From positions 1 through 64,000 of the IMG/VR virus record IMGVR_UViG_3300033149_003115: a DNA stretch of 64,000 bases, one strand, 5' to 3'. A program made the translations under genes and the position numbers. Shown here one piece after another: positions 620 to 36,100 of the stretch (position 1 is its first letter; every line of letters begins with the position of its first letter). Below the pieces are notes generated by a model. That model made no database searches. It was not told where the DNA came from and was given only the letters and a program-made list of their open reading frames with translations. This stretch comes from a virus.

Positions 620-1744
620 CTTCTTTAACTTCTTCATTCTTACCTTATTCTCATTATTCTAATTCTTTAGAAGGATATCCTTCATGTCTAGAAATTTCTA
701 TCTTGAACTAGAGCTAGTTAGCTCTAAGCTCAAGACCATGATCAAGCTACTCAAGAGCCCTAATATTCAGTATTTTGAAAAAGGGTACTTGATCAGCTTT
801 GTGATTTTAAACCTAAAGGATATCCAGATGGAGGTTGAGCTACTAGGCAGAGATAAGCTAATAATAGCTGAAAAAATGCAAAAGTGAAAAAGAGGTATTG
901 GTAATTTGGCTAAATGTTTAGTATGTGGTAAAGAGTTCATAATGGATCAGAAATACCTTAAGGAATTTGGCTACTCTATAGCTCGTAAGCTATTGTGCTC
1001 ATGGGAATGTTACTACAAATATGTAAATAACCCTGAAAAATATCAGATGTTCAAATAATAGTCGCTTATTATTATTCCACTCTTAAAGATCACCTGGAGA
1101 ATAAGATTATGAGAATAGAAGATTATGCTGAAACAGAGCTCAAGGAACTACTCAAGAGAATCAGGAACTATCTGAAAGAGGAACACAAGAAGGATGGTAT
1201 TACGATCTGGAAAGAGGTAAACGAACATTACTACAATATTCTAAAATCAGTTATTTTACCAATTATAGAGTTTGAGATAGAAACCTACAAGTAGCTGACT
1301 TGGAGAATAAGGTCATGAATGTTAAAGCTCATATTGGAGCAGATCTTAAGAGAATAAGAAGATATTTCAAAAGAGATCAAAAGGTTGATCTAACTGAGTT
1401 CTTCAATAGATGTATAGAAGCAGCTGACAGAGAACCAACCAGAGTTATTAGACAGCTTAAAAGAGTTAAAAGAATGGTTGGTAAAGAAGAATTTGAGAAA
1501 CAATTTATTCAATATAAGAAAAACAGAGAAATATTTCCAAAGATAGCTCCCTTTCTATTTGGTAAAGTGTGGAGAGACTATGATTATGAATAAAATAACA
1601 CATAGGTGAACAACATGGAAAAACCAGAATGTTTTGGTATGTATAACTCCCTAGACCCAAACTGTGAACTAAGCTGTAGATATAGCTCTGAATGTAAGAA
1701 AAAGAGACAAGAAATAGAAGGTTCGTAGAGGAGCCTTAGCTCTT

Positions 1745-21206: not shown

Positions 21207-22442
21207 ATGCCAAGAGGTAGTATTAGATCAGGAAATATCTACTCCATAACCCACAACCAGCTAGTTAAGATAGTCAAGAGAGTGTATGAGACTAAGGAAT
21301 CGCTGTTTGTACAGGGAGCTATAGGGATAGGAAAATCAGAAAGTGTTAGAAGAGCAGCTAAGGAGATAGCTCAAGAAAGAGGTCTAGAGTTCATAGAAAC
21401 CAAGTCTCCCAACCAGTATCCAGATAGGTTCTGTTTAGTGGATATTAGACTAGCTCAGAAGGATGCTGGTGAGATCCTGGGGTTACCAGAGAACTATGCT
21501 CTAATAGAGAAGAACGATAACCTCGATATCTTACCTGTCAAGGCTCTAGACGTGTTCCTATCGAACAACCACGATTCTGAGTATAGGATCATAGACTACA
21601 TCACTAGATGGAATCCTCCATCCTGGTTCCCAAGGAAAGGCAATGGTATCATATTCGTAGATGAGTTTAACCTAGCTCCTCCTCTAGTACAATACGCAAT
21701 GTATGAACTCATTAACGATAGAGCTCTGGGAGATTATCACCTACCAGAGGGATGGGTGGTTATAGGAGCTGGTAATAGAGGATCACTGGATGGAGCTACC
21801 ACATTCGAGTTCCCAGCTCCATTGAACGACAGGTTCCTATGGTATGAGCTAAAGATGCCATCAGTAGAGAAATGGACAGAGTATGCAGCTCGTAACGGAG
21901 TGGACTATCGTATTATAGGGTTCCTACAAACCACGAGATCAGCTATATACACCTTTAACCCCAAGTCTAAAGAGAAGGCTTTTGCTACACCTAGAAGCTG
22001 GGTCAAAGCTTCTAGGCTTATTAAAGGGGTGGAGGATGAGGATCTAGTGGAGCTATACCTCTCAGGTGCAGTTGGTAGCTATGTAGCTAAGCAGTTCAGG
22101 GCATACCTCCAAGCTAGGAGAACGTTACCTCCCACAGAGAAATACATCAAAGATCCCAAGGGGACAATGCTACCAAAGGAGAACGATCTGCTGTACACAT
22201 TATGTACTAACTTAGTGGAGTACCTGTCATATCATAAGGATGACAAGGATCAGGGTCTTCCTATACTCAGGAGCATACTGATATTCAGTGAGAGACTGAG
22301 CATGGAGTTTAGGACATTCCTACTCAAGCTAATAAAGCTCTCAGATGAGTCTTACTTCAAGGAGAACATCATTAAAATACCAGAGTTTGATAGGATATGC
22401 TCAACCATATCCAAGTACCTATTAAGAGAGGATGATGACTAG
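21207..22442 (+). CDS. MoxR-like AAA+ ATPase
   Basis: Walker A GAIGIGKS, Walker B IIFVDEFN, VIGAGN, PLNDRF, ATPRSW. Confidence 0.85.
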   Translation: MPRGSIRSGNIYSITHNQLVKIVKRVYETKESLFVQGAIGIGKSESVRRAAKEIAQERGLEFIETKSPNQYPDRFCLVDIRLAQKDAGEILGLPENYALIEKNDNLDILPVKALDVFLSNNHDSEYRIIDYITRWNPPSWFPRKGNGIIFVDEFNLAPPLVQYAMYELINDRALGDYHLPEGWVVIGAGNRGSLDGATTFEFPAPLNDRFLWYELKMPSVEKWTEYAARNGVDYRIIGFLQTTRSAIYTFNPKSKEKAFATPRSWVKASRLIKGVEDEDLVELYLSGAVGSYVAKQFRAYLQARRTLPPTEKYIKDPKGTMLPKENDLLYTLCTNLVEYLSYHKDDKDQGLPILRSILIFSERLSMEFRTFLLKLIKLSDESYFKENIIKIPEFDRICSTISKYLLREDDD

Positions 22443-23718
22443 CATGACTGGAATGAGTGTAGAAGACAAGATAATCAAAGCTAGAGTCCAAATGATATCC
22501 AAAGCTCCATTCTATGGTACTCTGGTGATGAACCTTAACTTTAAAGAAGCAGATCCCAGAGAGATACCCACATGTGCGGTTACCCCTTATGGAACTGTAT
22601 ATTACAACAGAGAGTACATAGAGAACCTGACCCTGGAAGAGCTAAAAGGTGTACTAGTTCATGAGGTGCTTCATGTAGCTTTGCTACATCTGGAAAGAAG
22701 AGGAACCAGAAACATCATCAAAGCCAACATGGCTATGGATTATGCAGTTAACCTCATAGTAGAAGAGGACTTCTCCTTACCTAAGGGAGTATTGCTAGAT
22801 CACAAGTATCAGAACATGGCATGGGAGCAGATATATGATCAGCTACCAGATCCTGAGCTTTGTGATGGAGACTGTAGCAAGTGTCCTCTAGCCAAGGGTA
22901 TGGGTATCCCAGGGAGAGGGTTTGGTAACAAGGCATGTAGGAGATTTGGTAGCTTTGACAAACATATAACCAGAGATGAGCTAGAAAGAGCCAAGGAAGC
23001 TGCTAAGTCAGGTGCATCAAGTGATGATCTAAAGAAGCTAGGAATACCCAAGGAGATCCTGGATGAGGACACCTCCAAGTCTCCTAATTGGAGAAAGATA
23101 ATGTCTGATGCTTATAACTATGCCAAGAACGCAGGCAACCTACCAGCTGGGTTAGAAAGACTAGTGGATGAGTTCTCTCAACCTCAGATATCCTGGAAGG
23201 AGCTACTATCACAGTATGTTAGCAGATCTATTCCCTATAACTTCACCTATCGTAGATGCTCCAGGAAGTCTATAGTGTCAGGACACTACTTCCCATCTCT
23301 CTTGAAGGAGATGATAGAGGTGATGATATGTGTAGACACATCAGGCTCAATAAATGAGGATGATCTAAGGGAGTTCATGGGAGAGATACTAGGACTACTA
23401 AGAAGCTTTGAGAGAGTGGAAATAACATTGATGTCATGTGATACCCAGCTATACCAGGTCAACAAGGTGTCTAATGAATATGATCTAAGAGCATCCAAGC
23501 TAGTGGGTGGAGGAGGTACATCATTCAGACCTGTGTTCAAATACCTGAGAGAGGAAAAGAAGGACACCAAGATCCTAGTCTATTTCACTGATTGTTATGG
23601 GGACTTCCCTGATCCAGATGAGGTTCCATCTGGGTTAACAGTAATATGGGTGGTTACCAGAGATGGAAACCCTGAAGCTATACCAGAATACTTCCCATAT
23701 GTGGTTCAGCTTAAATGA
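22432..23718 (+). CDS. DUF2201-type metallopeptidase plus VWA domain protein
   Basis: LVHEVLH, N.AMDYAVN, MIDAS DTSGS, GGGGTSF, YFTD; usual partner of the upstream MoxR ATPase. Confidence 0.85.
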   Translation: MMTSMTGMSVEDKIIKARVQMISKAPFYGTLVMNLNFKEADPREIPTCAVTPYGTVYYNREYIENLTLEELKGVLVHEVLHVALLHLERRGTRNIIKANMAMDYAVNLIVEEDFSLPKGVLLDHKYQNMAWEQIYDQLPDPELCDGDCSKCPLAKGMGIPGRGFGNKACRRFGSFDKHITRDELERAKEAAKSGASSDDLKKLGIPKEILDEDTSKSPNWRKIMSDAYNYAKNAGNLPAGLERLVDEFSQPQISWKELLSQYVSRSIPYNFTYRRCSRKSIVSGHYFPSLLKEMIEVMICVDTSGSINEDDLREFMGEILGLLRSFERVEITLMSCDTQLYQVNKVSNEYDLRASKLVGGGGTSFRPVFKYLREEKKDTKILVYFTDCYGDFPDPDEVPSGLTVIWVVTRDGNPEAIPEYFPYVVQLK

Positions 23719-27661: not shown

Positions 27662-28273
27662 GTGTTGAAGAACCCTGTAACAGATTTTAGTACTTTAGAC
27701 AAGCAGAGGCGATACTGGGAGAGTGCTGATCCAAGCTTAGTTGGACCTCTAGATGCATCAAGGCTTGGAGGATGGATAAGAGAGCTGCATCCTGAGGATT
27801 TGTCTGGTAGGATACTAGATCATGGATGTGGAGTAGGGAGAGTCTATGAGGCTATTGCTAAGCCCAGTAGCTACATAGGGGTAGATATTAATGAGAAATA
27901 TCTAGAGATATTCAGATCCAAACATCCAGAAGCTATAATCATGAAGCTAAGCTCATGGGAGCTACCATTTCTACCAGAGTATTTTGATCATATCATTTCA
28001 TACTCAGTGTTTACACACTTTGATGTACATCAGATGGCATTTATGCTAGGAGAGTTCAACAGAGTGCTCAAGGTTAATGGTGAGGTACTCTTAACAATAT
28101 TTAGAGAAGAAGAGGTGAAGACACCAATTGGGAACTGGACAACAGTCAGTAGGGATCTATTTGGTTGTCTACTTAACACCCTAGGGTTTGAAGTTGTGAA
28201 TGAGGTCTTGATACCAGAAAGTGGTTATCACCAGGATTTCATCTTAGCTAAGAAGCAGGATGATGTTGTATGA
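27662..28273 (+). CDS. class I SAM-dependent methyltransferase
   Basis: ILDHGCGVG, YIGVDIN, FDHIISYSVFTH, RVLKVNG. Confidence 0.85.
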   Translation: MLKNPVTDFSTLDKQRRYWESADPSLVGPLDASRLGGWIRELHPEDLSGRILDHGCGVGRVYEAIAKPSSYIGVDINEKYLEIFRSKHPEAIIMKLSSWELPFLPEYFDHIISYSVFTHFDVHQMAFMLGEFNRVLKVNGEVLLTIFREEEVKTPIGNWTTVSRDLFGCLLNTLGFEVVNEVLIPESGYHQDFILAKKQDDVV

Positions 28274-28641
28274 GAATCTACATAGCAGGTCCATATAGTC
28301 CAGTTAGAGCAAAGGACAAACATGAGGCAGTTCAGGTAGCTGCTAAGAATGTCCATAGAGCCATAGAAGCTGGAATAGTACTGATAGAGAAGGGACACCA
28401 CCCATTCGTACCACATCTAACACACTATATTCATGTTCATCCATCATGTCCTAGAGACTATGGGAAATGGTGGTATGAGTATGACATGACATTTCTGGAG
28501 CTATGGGCTGAAGCTCTTCTCTATCTTGCTCCAAGCAGAGGAGCAGATAAGGAACTAGAGAGAGCTAAGGAACTTGGATTGAGGATCTTCTACTCTATAG
28601 ATGAAGTACCAGACATTTCCAATAGAGCTCCATCAGAGTGA
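28270..28641 (+). CDS. DUF1937/DUF4406-like protein (nucleoside deoxyribosyltransferase-like fold)
   Basis: RIYIAGPY, PFVPH, SRGADKELERAKELG. Confidence 0.7.
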   Translation: MRIYIAGPYSPVRAKDKHEAVQVAAKNVHRAIEAGIVLIEKGHHPFVPHLTHYIHVHPSCPRDYGKWWYEYDMTFLELWAEALLYLAPSRGADKELERAKELGLRIFYSIDEVPDISNRAPSE

Positions 28642-29426
28642 GGAACTTGAATCTATTCTACCACCTAATACAGGGAGACTGCTTAGAAGCTCTCTCAAAG
28701 ATCGATGATAACTCTATAAATCTGGTAGTTACTAGTCCACCATACAACGTAGGTGTAGACTATGGTGTTTACAAGGATAATCTAGACTGGGATGAGTACT
28801 ACAAGTGGTGTGAGAGATGGATGAGAGAGATCTACAGGGTCCTTAAGCCAGATGGAAGAGCCTGCCTAGATCACTACATCAGCTTTGGCTCTAGTAAAGC
28901 AAGATCAAGTCCAGCTCTAGATCTTCACTGTCTATCTAAGAAAATAGGCTTTAAACACCATGCATTGGTGATATGGGAAGAGAGAACTAGAAGTAAATAC
29001 ACAGCTTGGGGTAGCTGGTTAAGTGCATCTGCTCCATGTATCAACTCTCCCTATGAGGCTATTCTTATCCTCTATAAGGATCAATGGAAAAGGATCAATA
29101 AAGGCAAGAGCACAATAGCTAAGGAGGAGTTTCTTGAGGGAGTTTCTGGGATATGGAGACTAGGAACAGATAAGATACGCTTGACTCCAGCTACCTTCCC
29201 AGAGTCACTACCCAGGAGATGTATTAACCTATTTACGTTTGAAGGTGATGTAGTCTTAGATCCATTTATGGGATCTGGAACAACAATGAAAGCTGCTCAG
29301 GACCTTAAGCGGAGCTGTATTGGTATAGAGATAAACCCAGACTATTGTGAGACTATAAAGAAACGATGTTTTGGTAGGATGTTTCTAGACTGTGATGTTG
29401 AATATAGATTTGAGATCATTGAATGA
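28638..29426 (+). CDS. beta-class DNA methyltransferase (SPPY, likely N4-cytosine)
   Basis: VVTSPPYN, PATFP, VLDPFMGSGTT. Confidence 0.9.
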   Translation: MRNLNLFYHLIQGDCLEALSKIDDNSINLVVTSPPYNVGVDYGVYKDNLDWDEYYKWCERWMREIYRVLKPDGRACLDHYISFGSSKARSSPALDLHCLSKKIGFKHHALVIWEERTRSKYTAWGSWLSASAPCINSPYEAILILYKDQWKRINKGKSTIAKEEFLEGVSGIWRLGTDKIRLTPATFPESLPRRCINLFTFEGDVVLDPFMGSGTTMKAAQDLKRSCIGIEINPDYCETIKKRCFGRMFLDCDVEYRFEIIE

Positions 29427-29438
29427 GGAGGTGTGTGT

Positions 29439-29696
29439 ATGAGAGAGATAAGAGTAAGTGACTCTAGGAAGATTGTAGTACAGAAGACCAGGTTTAGGAA
29501 TAGAGAAGTACTTGATGTTAGGACATACATAGAAACTCCTAAGTACACTGGGTTTACCAGGAAGGGAATAAACATCCCAATAGAGTATGCTAAGGATCTT
29601 TCTCAAGCCATACTTGAGGAGATAGCAAAGCAGGATACCATTGATCCTTCCAAGAGCCTGAAACACTTAGATACTAATTTGTCCAGGGAACTGTAG
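29439..29696 (+). CDS. PC4/PdbC-like ssDNA-binding protein
   Basis: FRNREVLDVRTY...FTRKGINIP. Confidence 0.75.
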   Translation: MREIRVSDSRKIVVQKTRFRNREVLDVRTYIETPKYTGFTRKGINIPIEYAKDLSQAILEEIAKQDTIDPSKSLKHLDTNLSREL

Positions 29697-29727
29697 GATT
29701 TACAAAGCTAAAGTGGAGGTGATAATT

Positions 29728-30621
29728 ATGAATGACTTTAAAATTGTTTTATTAGGACACTTAGGAGTGGGATCTATATTCGGAATGATCACCAGAGGAA
29801 ATGAACAGAATAGATTTCAAAGATGGCTGAGGAACGAAGCATGGGAAAAAGCTAAGACAGCTGTTGGGGTTCCAGGGACCTACCCTGATATCCTAGTTAT
29901 AGGTGGAGAAGTAGGAGAGGGACAGAACAGGCTCGATTTCTGTGAGGATATCTGGTTACCAGACTATGAAAAGCAATCCATGATGGGAGCTGAGCTCATA
30001 AGTGAGTGGATAGGTGAGAACACTAAAGAGGTTCTAATTCTCTATGCTCATAGATATCATGGGATGAAAGAGATCAGGTTTGAGGATTTGCTAGCTAAGG
30101 ATCTAAAGATACTTCATCCCAACAAGAAGATACTGGTAGGAACTCAGTTTATCAGATCATACTTTGGTAAGACACTGAGGTTCAGACATGGTACATCTGG
30201 AGCTTTTGTATACTTATCAAGTGCTAATGAGAGACAGATCAAGTTCAACCTGATAGAGTATAGCTTAGGTAAAACACCAAAGTATGACTTCAGCTATGAG
30301 TTCCATAATCACAGAGCAGCTGGAGCCATGTTTGAGACCATTGGATCTATGTGGTGTCCATGTTTCAAGCTAATAGACAGATATGCAGAACTTAGACACC
30401 CCGATGCATGGTTACCAGACATAGGTCTACTAGCTATCACATTCCAGGTTAGGTTTGGTGATGTGAGAGTAAACAATGATCCTATCCTGTTTTATCCTCC
30501 CTTCAGGTTTGAGGATCTGGAGACTGCTATTAGAGACTTTAACAAGGTGTTAGAGGAGAAGAGAAAGGAAACGTATAAGAGACAGCTGGAGCTCCTGAAG
30601 AAGGATACATCATGTTCATAG
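29728..30621 (+). CDS. divergent calcineurin-like phosphoesterase with altered metal-binding motifs
   Basis: IVLLGHLGVG, VIGGEVGEG, RFRHG, FHNH at the positions of the DxH, GDxxD, H and GHxH motifs. Confidence 0.5.
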   Translation: MNDFKIVLLGHLGVGSIFGMITRGNEQNRFQRWLRNEAWEKAKTAVGVPGTYPDILVIGGEVGEGQNRLDFCEDIWLPDYEKQSMMGAELISEWIGENTKEVLILYAHRYHGMKEIRFEDLLAKDLKILHPNKKILVGTQFIRSYFGKTLRFRHGTSGAFVYLSSANERQIKFNLIEYSLGKTPKYDFSYEFHNHRAAGAMFETIGSMWCPCFKLIDRYAELRHPDAWLPDIGLLAITFQVRFGDVRVNNDPILFYPPFRFEDLETAIRDFNKVLEEKRKETYKRQLELLKKDTSCS

Positions 30622-30691
30622 GATAAGCTATGATATGATCCGATGAGATCTGCTTGGTTGTGCTTAGCCAGGTTATGCTAATCTTAGATAA
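30609..30691 (+). ncRNA. pentamer-repeat unit 1 (candidate guide RNA): ATCATGTTCAT leader plus 14 GHT-NN pentamers
   Basis: 12/14 pentamers from 30622 begin G[ACT]T. Confidence 0.75.
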
Positions 30692-30703: not shown

Positions 30704-30776
30704 ATCATGTTCATGGGCTTTGATATGTTAAGCTGGGTTAAGCTCGGTTGTGCTTAGTTGAGCTGAGATAAGTTAA
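30704..30776 (+). ncRNA. pentamer-repeat unit 2 (candidate guide RNA): ATCATGTTCAT leader plus 12 GHT-NN pentamers
   Basis: 12/12 pentamers from 30717 begin G[ACT]T. Confidence 0.75.
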
Positions 30777-30803: not shown

Positions 30804-30905
30804 TTCATAAGCTCTGATTTGATAAGATATGATGGGTTAGGCTGTGATTAGTTTGGCTTAGCTACGTTGGGTTCGGTTAAGCTAGGATAAGATGTTCTTA
30901 GACAT
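30804..30905 (+). ncRNA. pentamer-repeat unit 3 (candidate guide RNA): TTCAT leader plus 19 pentamers
   Basis: 17 consecutive G[ACT]T-NN from 30811, then TCT-TA GAC-AT. Confidence 0.75.
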
Positions 30906-30936: not shown

Positions 30937-31506
30937 ATGGAGTCAGATTTGATATACCAAATAAGATGTAGAATAATAGGACTAAGACCATATCTACAAC
31001 ATAGAAGACCCATAGACAAGAAAGAGAATAAAGAGCTAAGTAACTTGATTAAAATACTACAGAAAGATGCTACTGATGAGAAAGCATATACTAAGGAAGC
31101 TGAGTACTATGTCTACAAGAACGACAATGGATACTATATTCCATCCATACACATCAAGAGTGCTATGATCAAAGCTTCTACTAACTTTAAGGTAGGAGGG
31201 AAAGGTAACAAGACATACAAGGATTTCGTTAAAGGATTCGTAGTAATAGATCCAAAAGAGATACCAATAAATCCTCAAAAATACACTCTAGATAGAAGAT
31301 GGGAAAGAGTACAACAAGCTAGGATCATGAGAACTAGACCTAGATTTGATGATTGGTCAGCTGAGTTTAATCTAATTAGCTTAGATGAGACAGTATTACC
31401 AATGAAAGACCTAAAGAAAATCATAGTGTATGCAGGAAAGTATATCGGTATTGGAGATAGAAGACCAGAGTTTGGTAGGTTTAAAGTAGAGTTTCTAGAT
31501 GACTAA
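30937..31506 (+). CDS. stand-alone RAMP (Cas7/Csm3-like) protein; candidate Vipr-type RNA-guided effector
   Basis: N-terminal IxCRIIGLRPY strand, YYIPSIHIKSAM (RAMP YIPxSSxKG-like), RPRFDDWSAEF, Gly-rich loop AGKYIGIGDRRPEFGRFKV; RBS GGAGGTG at 30925. Confidence 0.8.
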   Translation: MESDLIYQIRCRIIGLRPYLQHRRPIDKKENKELSNLIKILQKDATDEKAYTKEAEYYVYKNDNGYYIPSIHIKSAMIKASTNFKVGGKGNKTYKDFVKGFVVIDPKEIPINPQKYTLDRRWERVQQARIMRTRPRFDDWSAEFNLISLDETVLPMKDLKKIIVYAGKYIGIGDRRPEFGRFKVEFLDD

Positions 31507-31541: not shown

Positions 31542-31751
31542 GTGAAGTCCAATATCTACTTATGTTTTGATCATTATACCCATATTTGTCCTAAGATAGG
31601 AAACCATGAGATCTGTTGTTACTCTTGTCCCTATTATATTCCAGAGCTTCACAGGTGTACTAAGAGAGAAGGGTTTGGATGTATAGAAGATCCATCTAAG
31701 TGTGAATATAGAATAAAGCTAACTAAAGAATATGTAATGGAAATACTCTAG
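31542..31751 (+). CDS. Cys-rich family B protein
   Basis: IYLC...CP...CCYSCP...C...C...C; tail VMEIL. Confidence 0.65.
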   Translation: MKSNIYLCFDHYTHICPKIGNHEICCYSCPYYIPELHRCTKREGFGCIEDPSKCEYRIKLTKEYVMEIL

Positions 31752-32005
31752 AGATGAACACTAAAGATACAATATATTATTGTACAAAATACACCTATAA
31801 GCCTAATAGGTGTGTCCTACCACCGAGTATGGATACACATATTATCACCTCTTTCCTCCTAAAGAAAGAAGAATGTGTAGAGAGATTATCCTTCTCCCTC
31901 CATGATCCAAGATTAATCCCTATCTCTAAATCCCTATATGATGTTAGGTCTTAAATGTAATGATCATGAGATTTTAAAAAAGAGATAGTAGCTAAAAGAG
32001 ATATA

Positions 32006-32413
32006 GTGATCTTAGCAATGAAACACACAGGTATAAAATACAAACCTAAACACCCTCTAAGTTATACCTGGAGAGGATCCTTCATCTGGGTTGGACCATC
32101 CATAACATCTTCTCTAAGTGATCTAGAGGATCTGATGAGAAAGAGCAAGATCCAGGAGATAGAGAAAAACAGGAAGGTGATGTTGGCTTATAAGAGGATG
32201 TACTCTAAGACTGCTATTTGTCATTCTATTATAGGATCTAGCTCTCTTATAGTTCTACTATCCCTCTTGTTGATAGGGGTACTAGAATCTTTAGCTTTGT
32301 TACCCCTTGTTCTCCTTAGTATCTTTAGGATTATCGAGAGCTATTCTGATTACACAGATAAGAAAGATAAGTATGAGCAATCTCTTAAGAGCTTTGTGAT
32401 AGAGGATATTTAA
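32006..32413 (+). CDS. membrane protein with shared C-terminal tail (VIEDI)
   Basis: two hydrophobic helices near the C-terminus. Confidence 0.55.
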   Translation: MILAMKHTGIKYKPKHPLSYTWRGSFIWVGPSITSSLSDLEDLMRKSKIQEIEKNRKVMLAYKRMYSKTAICHSIIGSSSLIVLLSLLLIGVLESLALLPLVLLSIFRIIESYSDYTDKKDKYEQSLKSFVIEDI

Positions 32414-32415
32414 AC

Positions 32416-32486
32416 GATCATAGTGAGATTAGTTAAGCTTTGTTCCGTTAGGCTCGGCTTCGCTAGGTTAAGTTAGGTTAAGTTTA
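32416..32486 (+). ncRNA. pentamer-repeat unit 4 (detached candidate guide RNA)
   Basis: TCATAG leader, then 12/12 G[ACT]T-NN pentamers from 32427; intergenic. Confidence 0.7.
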
Positions 32487-33129: not shown

Positions 33130-36100
33130 TTGAGGACCATGACATGTGCTCATTGTGGTAGGCAGTTCACTTGTAGTGGTAAATGCCAGAGGATCAGTCC
33201 CTACACATCCACTCTTTGCTCTTGTCTGGACTGTAGGATCAAGTTCTTAGTCAACTGTGAAATAGAACGATTCTCAGTCCTTCTAAAGGATATTCTAGAG
33301 ATCTATTCCACATGCTATGATCTTAGTGTAGAAGAGCTAAAGAAGAGATATATTATGTGTCTTATTTAGAGGACTATATCTAATGAAAGACACTAAATGC
33401 TTTAGATGTGGTAAAACATTCAAATGTACTAAAGATTGTACTCATAAACCATTCACATTCTTACCAGAGAACTCTGAACTTGAAACTGTTTGTATATGTC
33501 TAGATTGTAGAATAGAAGATTATCTTGAGCTTAGATCTAAGGCATGGGCATTACAAAGAGGTAAAACACCTTCATTTTTGGAATATAGCTTTTTTATTAA
33601 AGGATGTGTTAGCTGTTATAACATACCTGAAGAAGAAGTAAAGAAGAGGATATTGATAGACACGCTATGAGGTAAACACATGAAGAGGATGAAGTGTGCT
33701 AGCTGTGGAATAGAATTTGAGTGTACTCGTTTTTGTAGTCACTTACTCCCCTTTAGAGAAACTTGTTTATGTCTTAAATGTCAGATACGTTTACAAAAGA
33801 ATGTAGTAGGAGAAATTCTAGAGCTATATGGAGGACTAGGAGCTGATGATGAATATATCAGACGATGCTTTAATTTAAGTAGAGAGGAGCTAAAGAAGCT
33901 AAAGGTCATAGAAACATTATAAATGGGATAACAAATGATATGTTGGAACTGTGGTAAATCATTTGAGTGTACTAAGTATTGTCAATCTAAGCTTGATCCA
34001 GTTGAATATTGTCTATGCATGGAATGTCAGATCAAGATATTGAACTCTCCAAAAGAAGGATATATTTTTATCCCTAGGACATATTCTCCAATAGAGGTAG
34101 AGGATATCATGAGGTGTTTCGATCTATCCAGGACTGATCTAGAGAAGCTCCAGGTGATACATCTCTTATGATCTACACTTCTCGATGTGTCAGATGTGGT
34201 AAGATCTTTAAGTGTACTAAGAGATGTACTTTGTCACCTGAGGTACCTTATGGTTGTATATGTCTGAAATGTAGGTTAGAGGAGATCAAGAAGAACATAG
34301 ATCCCTATAGGATGATAGGGAAGCTGGATAGCATACTAGACTTATACTCATCCTGCTATGATGTCCCTCTTGATACTATGAAGAAGCTCTTCTTTATCAG
34401 CTATTTGTAGGGAATAACCTTGTATAAGATGAAACATGTCAACTGGGATAAGGTATTTGAATATACCAGGTTCTGTGATCCTATGATTTCTAGCTCTTAT
34501 CATCCTAGAGAAATTTTAGAAGGGAGCGTAGACAGGTGTTTGTGTTTAAGTGTCAAATCAGATATTTTAGAACCTATACTAAGGAGCTGTTTTGGTCTTT
34601 CTAAGAAAAAGTGTAAAGAGCCTATTATTGATAGAGGATTTATAGATTGACTAAAGTAATCTGTGCTAGATGTGGTAAGGAGTTCAAATGTGAGGGAATA
34701 TGTCCTTCTTTCTCATTATCCCCTCAAAATAGGTGTATCTGTTTAGAATGTAGGCTAAAAAACTTCCCTTATTATAGCGATAATTTCTATTTCTTTGGTA
34801 AGGAGTACACCAAGAAATGTTTTAATCTAAGTGAAGAGGAGATCTCTAAGCTACTAATAATCTATAGTTTATAGAGTGATCATATTTGGGAGAATAAGGT
34901 TATATGTTCTCAATGATCTTTTTGATAGTATACACTTTGTGATTATATCATGATAGTTAGATGTTTAGACTGTGGTAGAGTCATCAAGTGTACCAGATCA
35001 TGTCATAAGATCAAAAGTCTGAAGGGGAGAGATCTGGTATTTTGCTATTGCTCAGACTGTCTAATGAAGCAGCTAGATAAGCTTTCAAGATATTCAGATA
35101 GAAGCTCCAAGCTCTCTGAGTCTGACTTGAATGATATTCTAGACAGGTTAGAAAGATGCTTTGAGATGGACAAGAGCGAAATAGACAAGATCCTAATCCT
35201 TTATTCCTTATAGCAATATTTAAGAGATGAGGTGGATGAAGAAGCCTAAAGTAGTGAGGGTTAAGCCTAAGCTTAAGCTAGAGAGCTCAATGTCTGGATA
35301 CATTATCTATCTATGTGATGATCTGGGAAATGAGATATGGACTGAGCTATTTAAGGATGTGAAAGAGGCTACCACTATATACAATGTCCTCTCTGAGGTC
35401 CTGCTATCCCTTAGACTTAACTCATTTCATATCATGAGATCCACATAGAGGGTTTTAGCTTGGATATTAAACATGTTTGTGAGTTTGAAGCATCTGGTGG
35501 ACTATGCTGGCTAAAGGGTCTTAGGGTATGTAATGAAATAGACTATACCAAGTGTAAGACACGTAAAGCTGGACTGATCGTCTGTGAGCTATAGGTGTTA
35601 GATCTTGATAAGAGTCTGCTCCAAGTGTGGTGTTGAGTTCGTGTGCAATGGAGAGTGTCCTCAATATAGAATGTTTGGTCCTTCTTGTATCTGTCTAAGA
35701 TGTAGACTAGTCTTACTCAAAACATGGAAAGAGTATTTTAATCTAGGCTATTCTTACCTGATGAGGATACTTAAAATAGAAGAGTGTTTTAACCTGGATG
35801 ATATTGAAATAAAGAAGATCTTGCTAACAGAGCTACTTTAGGAGGAAGACATTAAATTGATACCTGTATGTAAGAACTGTGGAAGCTCAAATATACTGGT
35901 CAAGTGGGTACGTAAGTCAGAGAAATCAGATATTGTCTCGTTTGAGAAGTATGCTAATAAACTACTAGAGGAGAGGAAGAACACCAAGCATGATATTGGA
36001 TCTCTCTATTCATCAACCATTTCCTACCCCTTCCCATCTCTCGGATCAGTGCCTGATCCCATCACTAATTACGCTCAGCTGGTCCTGACTTGTAAGAACT

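What the first reader, a model, noticed from the sequence alone, without database searches (positions are those of the whole stretch)
30937..31506. Minimal RAMP protein with no other cas gene in 64 kb
Seen: no recognisable cas1/2/3/5/6/10 and no CRISPR repeat-spacer array in the window. The gene is AT-richer (AAA/TTA codons) than its upstream neighbour, suggesting acquisition as a cassette with its array. Established: RAMPs normally occur inside class 1 CRISPR operons. Inference: a one-protein effector acting by binding or silencing rather than cutting, possibly against competing elements.
Basis: partly seen in the sequence, partly recalled or inferred. Interest (0 to 1): 0.7.

Follow-up and report, generated by a model that had tools for sequence, protein, structure and literature searches.

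The report
Viral VIPR guide-RNA silencing locus
The lone RAMP gene is the protein part of a VIPR system, a virus-borne RNA-guided DNA-silencing device first described in 2026. It sits among four guide-RNA arrays that use an unusual G-H-T scaffold, so it is a real but already known kind of system in a slightly off-standard form.

Summary

The complete 113.9-kb virus genome has no Cas1, Cas2, Cas5, Cas6 or Pfam-RAMP match and no CRISPR array. The gene is not array-less, though. Four period-5 arrays of 12-17 units each (55 units, all on the + strand) flank it and occur nowhere else in the genome. This is the published VIPR architecture: Vipr plus vrRNAs, which silence DNA through a gapped code.

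The scaffold here is G-H-T/NN, not GGY/NN; position 2 is never G. The G-loop tryptophan that stacks on G2 in SUSP1 is arginine here. Across 79 Vipr loci, an aromatic residue at that site goes with G2 (median frequency 0.87) and a non-aromatic one with its loss (0.16).

I found no vap1 homologue, structured RNA tail or natural target. The closest relatives lie in archaeal (DPANN) bins.

Verdict: new member of a known kind.

The parts
30937..31506 (+). vipr gene: 189-aa stand-alone RAMP (Vipr)
30620..30689 (+). vrRNA array 1: 14 units of NN-G-H-T. It begins inside the stop codon of the upstream ORF.
30715..30774 (+). vrRNA array 2: 12 perfect units
30809..30893 (+). vrRNA array 3: 17 perfect units. 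It ends 43 nt before the vipr ATG.
   Evidence: The longest perfect run in 30 shuffles of the genome was 5 units.
32425..32484 (+). vrRNA array 4: 12 perfect units, downstream of vipr and three small ORFs
30609..30619 (+). 11-mer ATCATGTTCAT directly before array 1. A second copy lies at 30704-30714 before array 2, and a CATTCAT variant lies before array 3. It may be a boundary, processing or start element.
   Evidence: The 11-mer occurs only at these two places in 113.9 kb. Flank alignment.
31447..31479 (+). Glycine-rich loop (residues 171-181, motif GIGDRRPEFGR). It holds D174 (= SUSP1 D177, reads G1), R175 (= SUSP1 W178, the G2 stacker, replaced here) and R176 (= R179).
31285..31347 (+). 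Thumb beta-hairpin (residues 117-137), including R134 (= SUSP1 R138)
   Evidence: Secondary structure of the model. Residue mapping.
31000..31002 (+). H22 codon (= SUSP1 H17, reads G1)
29713..30621 (+). 302-aa ORF, the only neighbour conserved with the sister virus (86% identity). It is a weak candidate accessory gene. Protein-language-model features point to a viral metallophosphoesterase-like group.
   Evidence: The adjacency may simply reflect genome collinearity. The single-sequence fold failed.
31542..32413 (+). Three small ORFs (69, 66 and 135 aa) enclosed between vipr and array 4. They are not conserved in any other VIPR locus and match no family.

Best explanation
This is a VIPR (Viral Interference Programmable Repeat) system carried by a complete 114-kb, probably archaeal, tailed virus.

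Inferred by homology to the SUSP1 and P. fulva systems. The four + strand arrays are transcribed into vrRNAs. Arrays 1-3 probably lie on the same transcript as the upstream gene and vipr, because they fill the gap from its stop codon to the vipr SD. One Vipr protomer binds each 5-nt unit, and the protomers form a helical filament along the RNA. H22 and D174 read the scaffold G, and a narrow pocket with R176 holds the scaffold T. The two free NN bases of each unit are exposed. They pair with double-stranded DNA while skipping every third target base, which forms a gapped R-loop that blocks transcription. No nuclease or helicase gene accompanies the system, so the expected outcome is repression of a competing element (co-infecting virus, provirus, satellite or plasmid), not cutting.

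Shown here. Homology and fold of the protein; the arrays, their strand and their exclusivity to this locus; the absence of most cas genes (Cas1, Cas2, Cas5, Cas6, RAMP profiles); and a non-canonical scaffold, G-H-T instead of GGY.

Inferred for the variant. The aromatic G-loop residue that stacks on G2 in SUSP1 (W178) is Arg175 here, so scaffold position 2 is no longer read as G. G seems to be avoided at that position.
For: Protein. Full-length match to the solved SUSP1 Vipr. RAMP fold with RRM core, thumb hairpin and G-loop. Conserved H17, R138, D177 and R179 equivalents.

Arrays. 55 units, with G at position 3 in 54 and T at position 5 in 54. All are on the + strand and only at this locus in 113.9 kb. 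The longest perfect run is 17 units, against at most 5 in shuffles.

Family context. Of the 108 loci fetched with Vipr relatives, 79 distinct Viprs have at least 10 period-5 scaffold units within 2.5 kb of the gene. The sister virus G001 has 43 of 43 G-H-T units.

Published mechanism and biology.

No cas genes or CRISPR array in the complete genome.

Covariation. An aromatic residue at position 178 goes with median G2 frequency 0.87 (62 of 65 loci at or above 0.7). A non-aromatic residue goes with median 0.16 (10 of 14 below 0.5), Mann-Whitney p 1.6e-6. The switches lie on several separate lineages with GG-type sisters.
Against: No natural target reached significance under the 1-nt-skip rule. 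No vap1 homologue was found. The arrays with their flanks do not fold better than shuffles, so there is no sign of a structured 3' tail (z -0.2 to -2.0, +1.2 for array 4), and Rfam gives no match. The scaffold departs from the GGY on which the published rules were established, so the skip rule may not transfer unchanged. The covariation has exceptions (Gly in L080 and L168, Leu in L056, His in L154 keep GG; L156 and L050 are aromatic with low G2), and the p-value is not corrected for phylogeny.
Confidence: 0.85

Rival explanations
1. The locus is a working VIPR, but it regulates the virus's own or the host's genes (a timing or takeover switch) and does not attack competing mobile elements.
For: No competitor target was found in IMG/VR, JGI metagenomes or the sister virus. 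The host genome is unknown and could not be scanned.
Against: No site in the virus's own genome exceeds the shuffled-guide null under skip 0, 1 or 2. Published natural targets are overwhelmingly satellites, prophages and rival VIPRs.
Confidence: 0.1
2. The locus is a decaying remnant: Vipr or the arrays no longer function, and the loss of G2 reflects erosion.
For: The canonical GGY is absent, and W178 is replaced. The sister virus has short, fragmented arrays. There is no vap and no tail.
Against: The scaffold is kept in 54 of 55 units while the NN bases vary freely, and G is strictly excluded from position 2. That is selection, not drift. The ORF is intact, its G1- and T-reading residues are conserved, and the model is confident. 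The same scaffold change recurs with matching residue changes in other lineages.
Confidence: 0.05
3. The protein is a virus-borne Cas7-like subunit that plugs into or poisons a host class 1 CRISPR complex, and the period-5 arrays are unrelated DNA features such as iterons or curved DNA.
For: The best structural matches are Csm3 and type VII Cas7.
Against: Sequence homology is to Vipr, not to any Cas7 profile. The arrays are strand-specific and co-occur with Vipr genes in most of the other loci examined (79 distinct Viprs with scaffold arrays). No CRISPR repeat is present.
Confidence: 0.03

Closest known systems
SUSP1 / P. fulva VIPR systems (type II VIPR; bioRxiv 10.64898/2026.04.26.720920, .720927 and 2026.10.15.759431; PDB 36pp)
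   Same: A stand-alone Vipr RAMP of about 190 aa, homologous over its full length (about 30% identity). It is virus-encoded and lies in a small locus without cas genes. It is flanked on both sides by same-strand arrays of 12-17 five-nt units with two free bases. The G1-reading H and D, the thumb Arg and the G-loop Arg are conserved.
   Different: The scaffold is G-H-T, not GGY. The G2-stacking Trp is replaced by Arg. There is no vap1 homologue. There is no evident structured 3' tail or pseudoknot. Three arrays lie upstream and one downstream, the mirror of SUSP1. The host is probably archaeal rather than enterobacterial. Targets are unknown.
Non-canonical VIPR arrays reported from a genomic language model survey (bioRxiv 10.64898/2026.10.21.760802)
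   Same: Period-5 arrays next to Vipr-like folds whose fixed trinucleotide departs from GGY, including motifs degenerate at one scaffold position.
   Different: The motifs named in the readable text are GAC, CAC, WGT and TGH, each followed by NN. G-H-T/NN is not named there. The full list is in a figure I could not read, so I cannot tell whether this exact motif is already catalogued.
Cas7-family RAMPs of class 1 CRISPR (Csm3 of type III-A, Cas7 of type VII)
   Different: Only 10-17% identity and no Cas7 profile match. There are no partner Cas proteins, no CRISPR repeats and no adaptation genes. The register is 5 nt with only 2 pairing bases, and the published family targets dsDNA with a gapped code.

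Membership tests
VIPR system | Vipr protein: sequence homology to described Vipr proteins | tested here: met
   36pp_D SUSP1 Vipr at E 1.3e-14, residues 10-188 of 189. tblastn finds the SUSP1-family genes at about 30% identity.
VIPR system | Minimal RAMP fold with RRM core, glycine-rich loop and thumb, and no second RRM | tested here: met
VIPR system | Tandem 5-nt repeat arrays (vrRNA genes, 9-16 units) in the intergenic DNA flanking vipr | tested here: met
   Four arrays of 14, 12, 17 and 12 units, on the + strand and only at this locus.
VIPR system | Canonical scaffold GGY alternating with NN | tested here: not met
   The scaffold is G-H-T. Position 2 is C20/T19/A16/G0 in 55 units. The papers allow 'a related consensus' and non-canonical motifs, so this does not exclude membership.
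VIPR system | Scaffold-reading residues of the solved complex (H17, R138, D177, W178, R179) | tested here: inconclusive
   Four of five are conserved. W178 is Arg175, which matches the missing G2.
VIPR system | Invariable structured 3' tail (a pseudoknot in the SUSP1 clade) | tested here: inconclusive
   Arrays plus their flanks do not fold better than shuffles. There is no Rfam match. A short conserved 11-mer precedes arrays 1 and 2 instead.
VIPR system | Accessory vap gene next to vipr | tested here: inconclusive
   No similarity to SUSP1 vap1. No neighbour is shared with other VIPR loci except the 302-aa ORF in the collinear sister virus.
VIPR system | Virus-encoded, outside any CRISPR-cas locus | tested here: met
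   Complete virus record with terminal repeats. No Cas1, Cas2, Cas5, Cas6 or RAMP profile hits and no CRISPR-like repeats.
VIPR system | vrRNAs expressed and bound by Vipr | not testable with these tools
VIPR system | Natural targets matching the NN bases under the 1-nt-skip rule (at least 80% NN) | tested here: inconclusive
   The best hit was 22/24 in one unrelated contig, which is about what chance predicts for the collection. There was no convergence of guides. Only exact seeds could be searched.
Class 1 CRISPR-Cas (Cas7 subunit of a type I/III/IV/VII effector) | Match to a Cas7/RAMP sequence profile | tested here: not met
   No Pfam, NCBIfam or PADLOC hit. PF03787 gave nothing in six frames.
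Class 1 CRISPR-Cas (Cas7 subunit of a type I/III/IV/VII effector) | Partner cas genes and a CRISPR repeat-spacer array in the same element | tested here: not met
   None in the complete 113.9-kb genome. Cas3 and Cas10 were not searched by profile.

The most novel reading that the evidence does not exclude
The G-loop residue equivalent to SUSP1 W178 may be a switch that sets the second scaffold base of the vrRNA. Lineages that replaced the aromatic residue (Arg here, Lys, Ser, Glu or Asn elsewhere) have recoded scaffolds (G-H-T, G-T-Y, G-C-Y). That would give mutually orthogonal Vipr-vrRNA pairs. Published work shows that satellites and rival phages deploy solo or decoy vrRNAs to hijack a phage's Vipr. 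A private scaffold, with G actively excluded at position 2 as in this virus, would insulate the system from such hijacking and keep its own guides from being used by a canonical Vipr. Repeated independent switches would then record an arms race over guide loading, not only over targets.
Probability: 0.3. Interest if true: 0.6.

Novelty: new member of a known kind. Interest (0 to 1): 0.35.

Why it matters
The finding shows that sequence reading alone can recover a VIPR system, and it places one in a large, complete, uncultured virus whose nearest Vipr relatives lie in DPANN and other archaeal bins. Its practical value is the natural variant. It pairs a clean G-H-T scaffold with a single substitution at the residue that the cryo-EM structure shows stacking on G2, and that pairing is backed by covariation across 79 loci. 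This gives a directly testable rule for how Vipr proteins choose their guide scaffold. The rule matters for understanding competition between VIPR-bearing elements and for building orthogonal VIPR tools. The locus itself does not change what is known about the family.

Tried and rejected
Targets.
- Self-targeting under skip 0-3: nothing above shuffled guides.
- Cross-targeting between the window virus and its sister G001, both directions: within the null.
- Exact 16-18-base seeds of all four guides in IMG/VR and of guide 3 in JGI metagenomes: 0, 20, 2, 27 and 7 hits, all in unrelated ORFs. The best extensions were 22/24 (L089, GC 0.49, no shared genes) and 26/34, and no locus was hit by two guides.
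- An id-padding slip made seem to show a new 92% hit and made skip L089-L099. Searches corrected both.

Accessory gene.
- No similarity between SUSP1 vap1 and the neighbours.
- The single-sequence fold of the 302-aa ORF failed (pLDDT 43).
- Its homologues in IMG/VR are limited to the sister virus, so association with vipr could not be tested.

RNA and signals.
- Rfam, including hammerheads: no hit.
- Sigma-70 promoter and terminator scans: not above shuffles.

Other points.
- L151 (Parvarchaeota contig, Asp at position 178) has no arrays within 3 kb, so it is uninformative.
- Formal type I-VII assignment was not possible because the paper's supplements are not held.

Full report
OBSERVATION

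The ORF at 30937-31506 on the + strand is real. A GGAGGTGAT Shine-Dalgarno sequence lies 7 nt before the ATG at 30937, and homologues start at the same point. No Pfam, NCBIfam or PADLOC profile matches it. It belongs to phrog_4652, of unknown function (E 3e-26).

G000 is a complete virus record of 113,897 bp with terminal repeats, and the window is its first 64 kb. Six-frame searches of the whole genome with Cas1, Cas2, Cas5d, Cas6 and the Pfam RAMP model gave nothing. The same searches rang in the control genomes. Cas3 and Cas10 were not searched by profile. A k-mer scan found no CRISPR-like spaced repeats, and the Vipr profile hits only this ORF.

The gene's GC is 0.344, the 5th percentile of the genome's ORFs. 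The upstream gene has 0.411.

WHAT THE PROTEIN IS

A phmmer search of PDB sequences returned one significant hit. It is 36pp chain D, 'SUSP1 Vipr protein', at E 1.3e-14, aligned over residues 10-188 of 189. A tblastn search finds the same gene in 131 phage records, mostly SUSP1- and Felix-O1-like phages, at about 30% identity. All are annotated as hypothetical.

The model shows the RAMP landmarks. It has an RRM core, a beta-hairpin thumb (residues 117-137), and a glycine-rich loop between the last helix and last strand. The loop motif is invariant or nearly so among relatives.

THE FAMILY IS ALREADY DESCRIBED

Three 2026 preprints define VIPR systems.
- The system consists of a stand-alone viral RAMP (Vipr) plus vrRNAs made of 9-16 five-nt units, in which a GGY scaffold alternates with free NN bases.
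- One protomer binds each unit, and the protomers form a helical filament.
- The NN bases pair with dsDNA while every third target base is skipped. The result is transcriptional repression.
- Natural targets are satellites, prophages and rival VIPRs.
- Loci are minimal: vipr, often one vap gene, and long intergenic regions holding the vrRNAs.

THE ARRAYS

The 295-bp gap upstream of vipr reads in 5-nt steps. A scan of the whole genome on both strands found period-5 arrays of at least six units only at four places: 30620-30689 (14 units), 30715-30774 (12), 30809-30893 (17) and 32425-32484 (12). All are on the + strand.

Over the 55 units, position 3 is G in 54 and position 5 is T in 54. Position 4 is C20/T19/A16 and never G. 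Positions 1 and 2 vary freely. The longest perfect run is 17 units, against 4 on the opposite strand and at most 5 in 30 shuffles. Lowering the threshold to four units adds only three short runs elsewhere.

Array 1 starts inside the stop codon of the upstream ORF. Array 3 ends 43 nt before the vipr ATG. Arrays 1-3 therefore fill the leader of vipr. Array 4 lies downstream, after three small ORFs. This is the mirror image of the SUSP1 layout, which has one array upstream and three downstream.

An 11-mer, ATCATGTTCAT, occurs only twice in the genome, immediately before arrays 1 and 2. A shorter variant precedes array 3. Each array with its downstream flank folds no better than shuffles (z -0.2 to -2.0, +1.2 for array 4), and Rfam finds nothing. 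I therefore see no counterpart of the SUSP1 3' pseudoknot.

THE VARIANT SCAFFOLD AND ITS PROTEIN CORRELATE

In GGY/NN register the unit here is G-H-T/NN. The cryo-EM paper assigns the scaffold contacts as follows:
- G1 is read by H17 and D177.
- G2 is held by R138 of the thumb and by stacking on W178.
- Y3 sits in a narrow pocket that includes R179.

I validated that numbering on the phiSUSP1 gene. The window protein keeps H22, R134, D174 and R176 but has Arg175 in place of W178.

I fetched 80 IMG/VR loci and 25 genome loci with Vipr relatives. For each I called arrays with a motif-free period-5 detector and phased them on G1 and Y3. Among 79 distinct proteins with at least 10 units:
- 65 have W, Y or F at position 178. 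Their median G2 frequency is 0.87, and 62 are at or above 0.7.
- 14 have another residue. Their median is 0.16, and 10 are below 0.5.
- Mann-Whitney p is 1.6e-6, not corrected for phylogeny.

Individual values for non-aromatic residues:

| Residue at 178 | Locus | G2 frequency |
|---|---|---|
| Arg | window, L020, L028 | 0.00-0.02 |
| Lys | L005 | 0.06 |
| Glu | L029 | 0.07 |
| Ser | L014 | 0.11 |
| Asn | L153 | 0.22 |
| Ala | L039, L052 | about 0.45 |

The exceptions are Gly (L080, L168), Leu (L056) and His (L154), which keep GG. Two aromatic loci have low G2 (L156, L050).

A quick maximum-likelihood tree places the window with L001 (Arg), sister to L004 (Tyr, GGT arrays). It scatters the other non-aromatic lineages among GG-type neighbours. 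Parsimony needs 10 changes, and well-supported branches alone force at least 3.

The sister virus G001 (Vipr 66% identical) has 43 of 43 G-H-T units, with position 2 as A19/T13/C11. The other Arg-bearing loci fix T at position 2. This clade instead keeps it as 'anything but G'.

A fourth preprint already reports 21 clusters of non-canonical VIPR motifs: GAC, CAC, WGT and TGH, each followed by NN. G-H-T is not named in the text I could read. I could not see the figures that list all motifs or the seven types, and no supplements are held.

ACCESSORY GENES

SUSP1 vap1 has no similarity to the neighbours. No neighbouring ORF is shared with any other VIPR locus. Only vipr itself is shared with the archaeal-bin contigs and the closest IMG/VR loci. 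This fits cassette-like mobility.

The exception is the 302-aa ORF at 29713-30621, which is 86% identical in G001 and also lies next to vipr there. The two genomes are collinear in this region, with 55% tblastx coverage overall, so the adjacency may be inherited. The arrays lie on opposite sides of that gene in the two viruses.

Protein-language-model features place the 302-aa protein near viral calcineurin-like phosphoesterases (score 0.94). This is a lead only. The single-sequence fold failed, and no further loci could be fetched.

The three small ORFs between vipr and array 4 match nothing. Two of them (the 69- and 135-aa ORFs) end in the hydrophobic C-terminal tail that earlier notes report on about 50 small proteins of this genome. 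They therefore look like genome-wide small genes rather than VIPR parts.

TARGETS

I decoded the NN strings.
- Under skip 0, 1 or 2, no site in the virus's own genome beats shuffled guides. The skip-3 hits are the arrays themselves.
- The window's guides do not match G001, nor G001's guides the window.
- Collection scans allow only exact patterns, so I used 16-18-base seeds and scored the rest of each guide in the returned loci.
- Guide 3 gave 0 hits in IMG/VR and 7 in metagenomes. Guides 2, 1 and 4 gave 20, 2 and 27 hits in IMG/VR.
- The hits lie in unrelated ORFs. The best extensions were 22/24 (L089) and 26/34, and no locus attracted two guides.
- By my estimate, about one 22/24 match is expected by chance in a collection of that size.

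Natural targets therefore remain unknown. The test was weak because mismatched targets could not be searched.

HOST

The virus is far from cultured phages. Its family B polymerase is 22-24% identical to those of haloarchaeal tailed viruses. The closest Vipr relatives in genome bins are in Parvarchaeota, Pacearchaeota, Aenigmatarchaeota, Thermoproteota and an unclassified archaeon, at 39-46% identity. An archaeal host, possibly DPANN, is likely but not shown.

VERDICT

The system is a VIPR locus, a known kind. Its own features are:
- a G-H-T scaffold with Trp replaced by Arg at the G2 contact;
- no vap1 homologue and no structured tail;
- arrays packed into the vipr leader;
- a probably archaeal virus as carrier.

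The covariation between residue 178 and scaffold base 2 is the most useful new point and can be tested directly.

Noticed in passing
window 33130-35213: A run of at least eight tandem small genes (75-95 aa) encodes paralogous Cys-rich, zinc-ribbon-like proteins. They share a CxxC ... C ... CxxC pattern and similar hydrophobic C-terminal ends.
   Followed up: no
window 29433-29696: An 87-aa ORF has a near-threshold match to the eukaryote/archaea-type PC4 single-stranded-DNA-binding coactivator domain (PF02229, E 1.7e-5, 24.6 bits against a cut-off of 25).
   Followed up: no
window 29713-30621: A 302-aa protein, 86% identical in the sister virus, with only 8 homologues among 5.8 billion proteins. 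Language-model features suggest a divergent viral metallophosphoesterase. Its last codons and stop overlap the 11-mer and the first unit of array 1.
   Followed up: partly
window 27662-29426: A cluster of DNA-modification-type genes lies just upstream of the VIPR locus: a SAM methyltransferase-like ORF (27662-28273) and a DNA methyltransferase-like ORF with the SPPY motif (28638-29426). The second shares 30% identity with an ORF that also sits directly upstream of vipr in the unrelated locus L002.
   Followed up: no
window 21207-23718: An adjacent ATPase (phrog_1297) and HNH endonuclease (phrog_1314) pair, both with strong PHROG matches.
   Followed up: no
L156 (Aenigmatarchaeota bin contig) and L050: These Vipr loci have an aromatic residue at the W178 position but only about 40% G at scaffold position 2 (C is 50% in L156). 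They may hold two array types in one locus, or another residue may also set the scaffold.
   Followed up: no
G001 (IMG/VR record behind L001), contig 982-1378, minus strand: The sister virus's G-H-T arrays are short (4-12 units) and broken by frame slips. They lie upstream of the 302-aa gene instead of between it and vipr, so the arrays have moved or been rebuilt since the two viruses diverged.
   Followed up: partly
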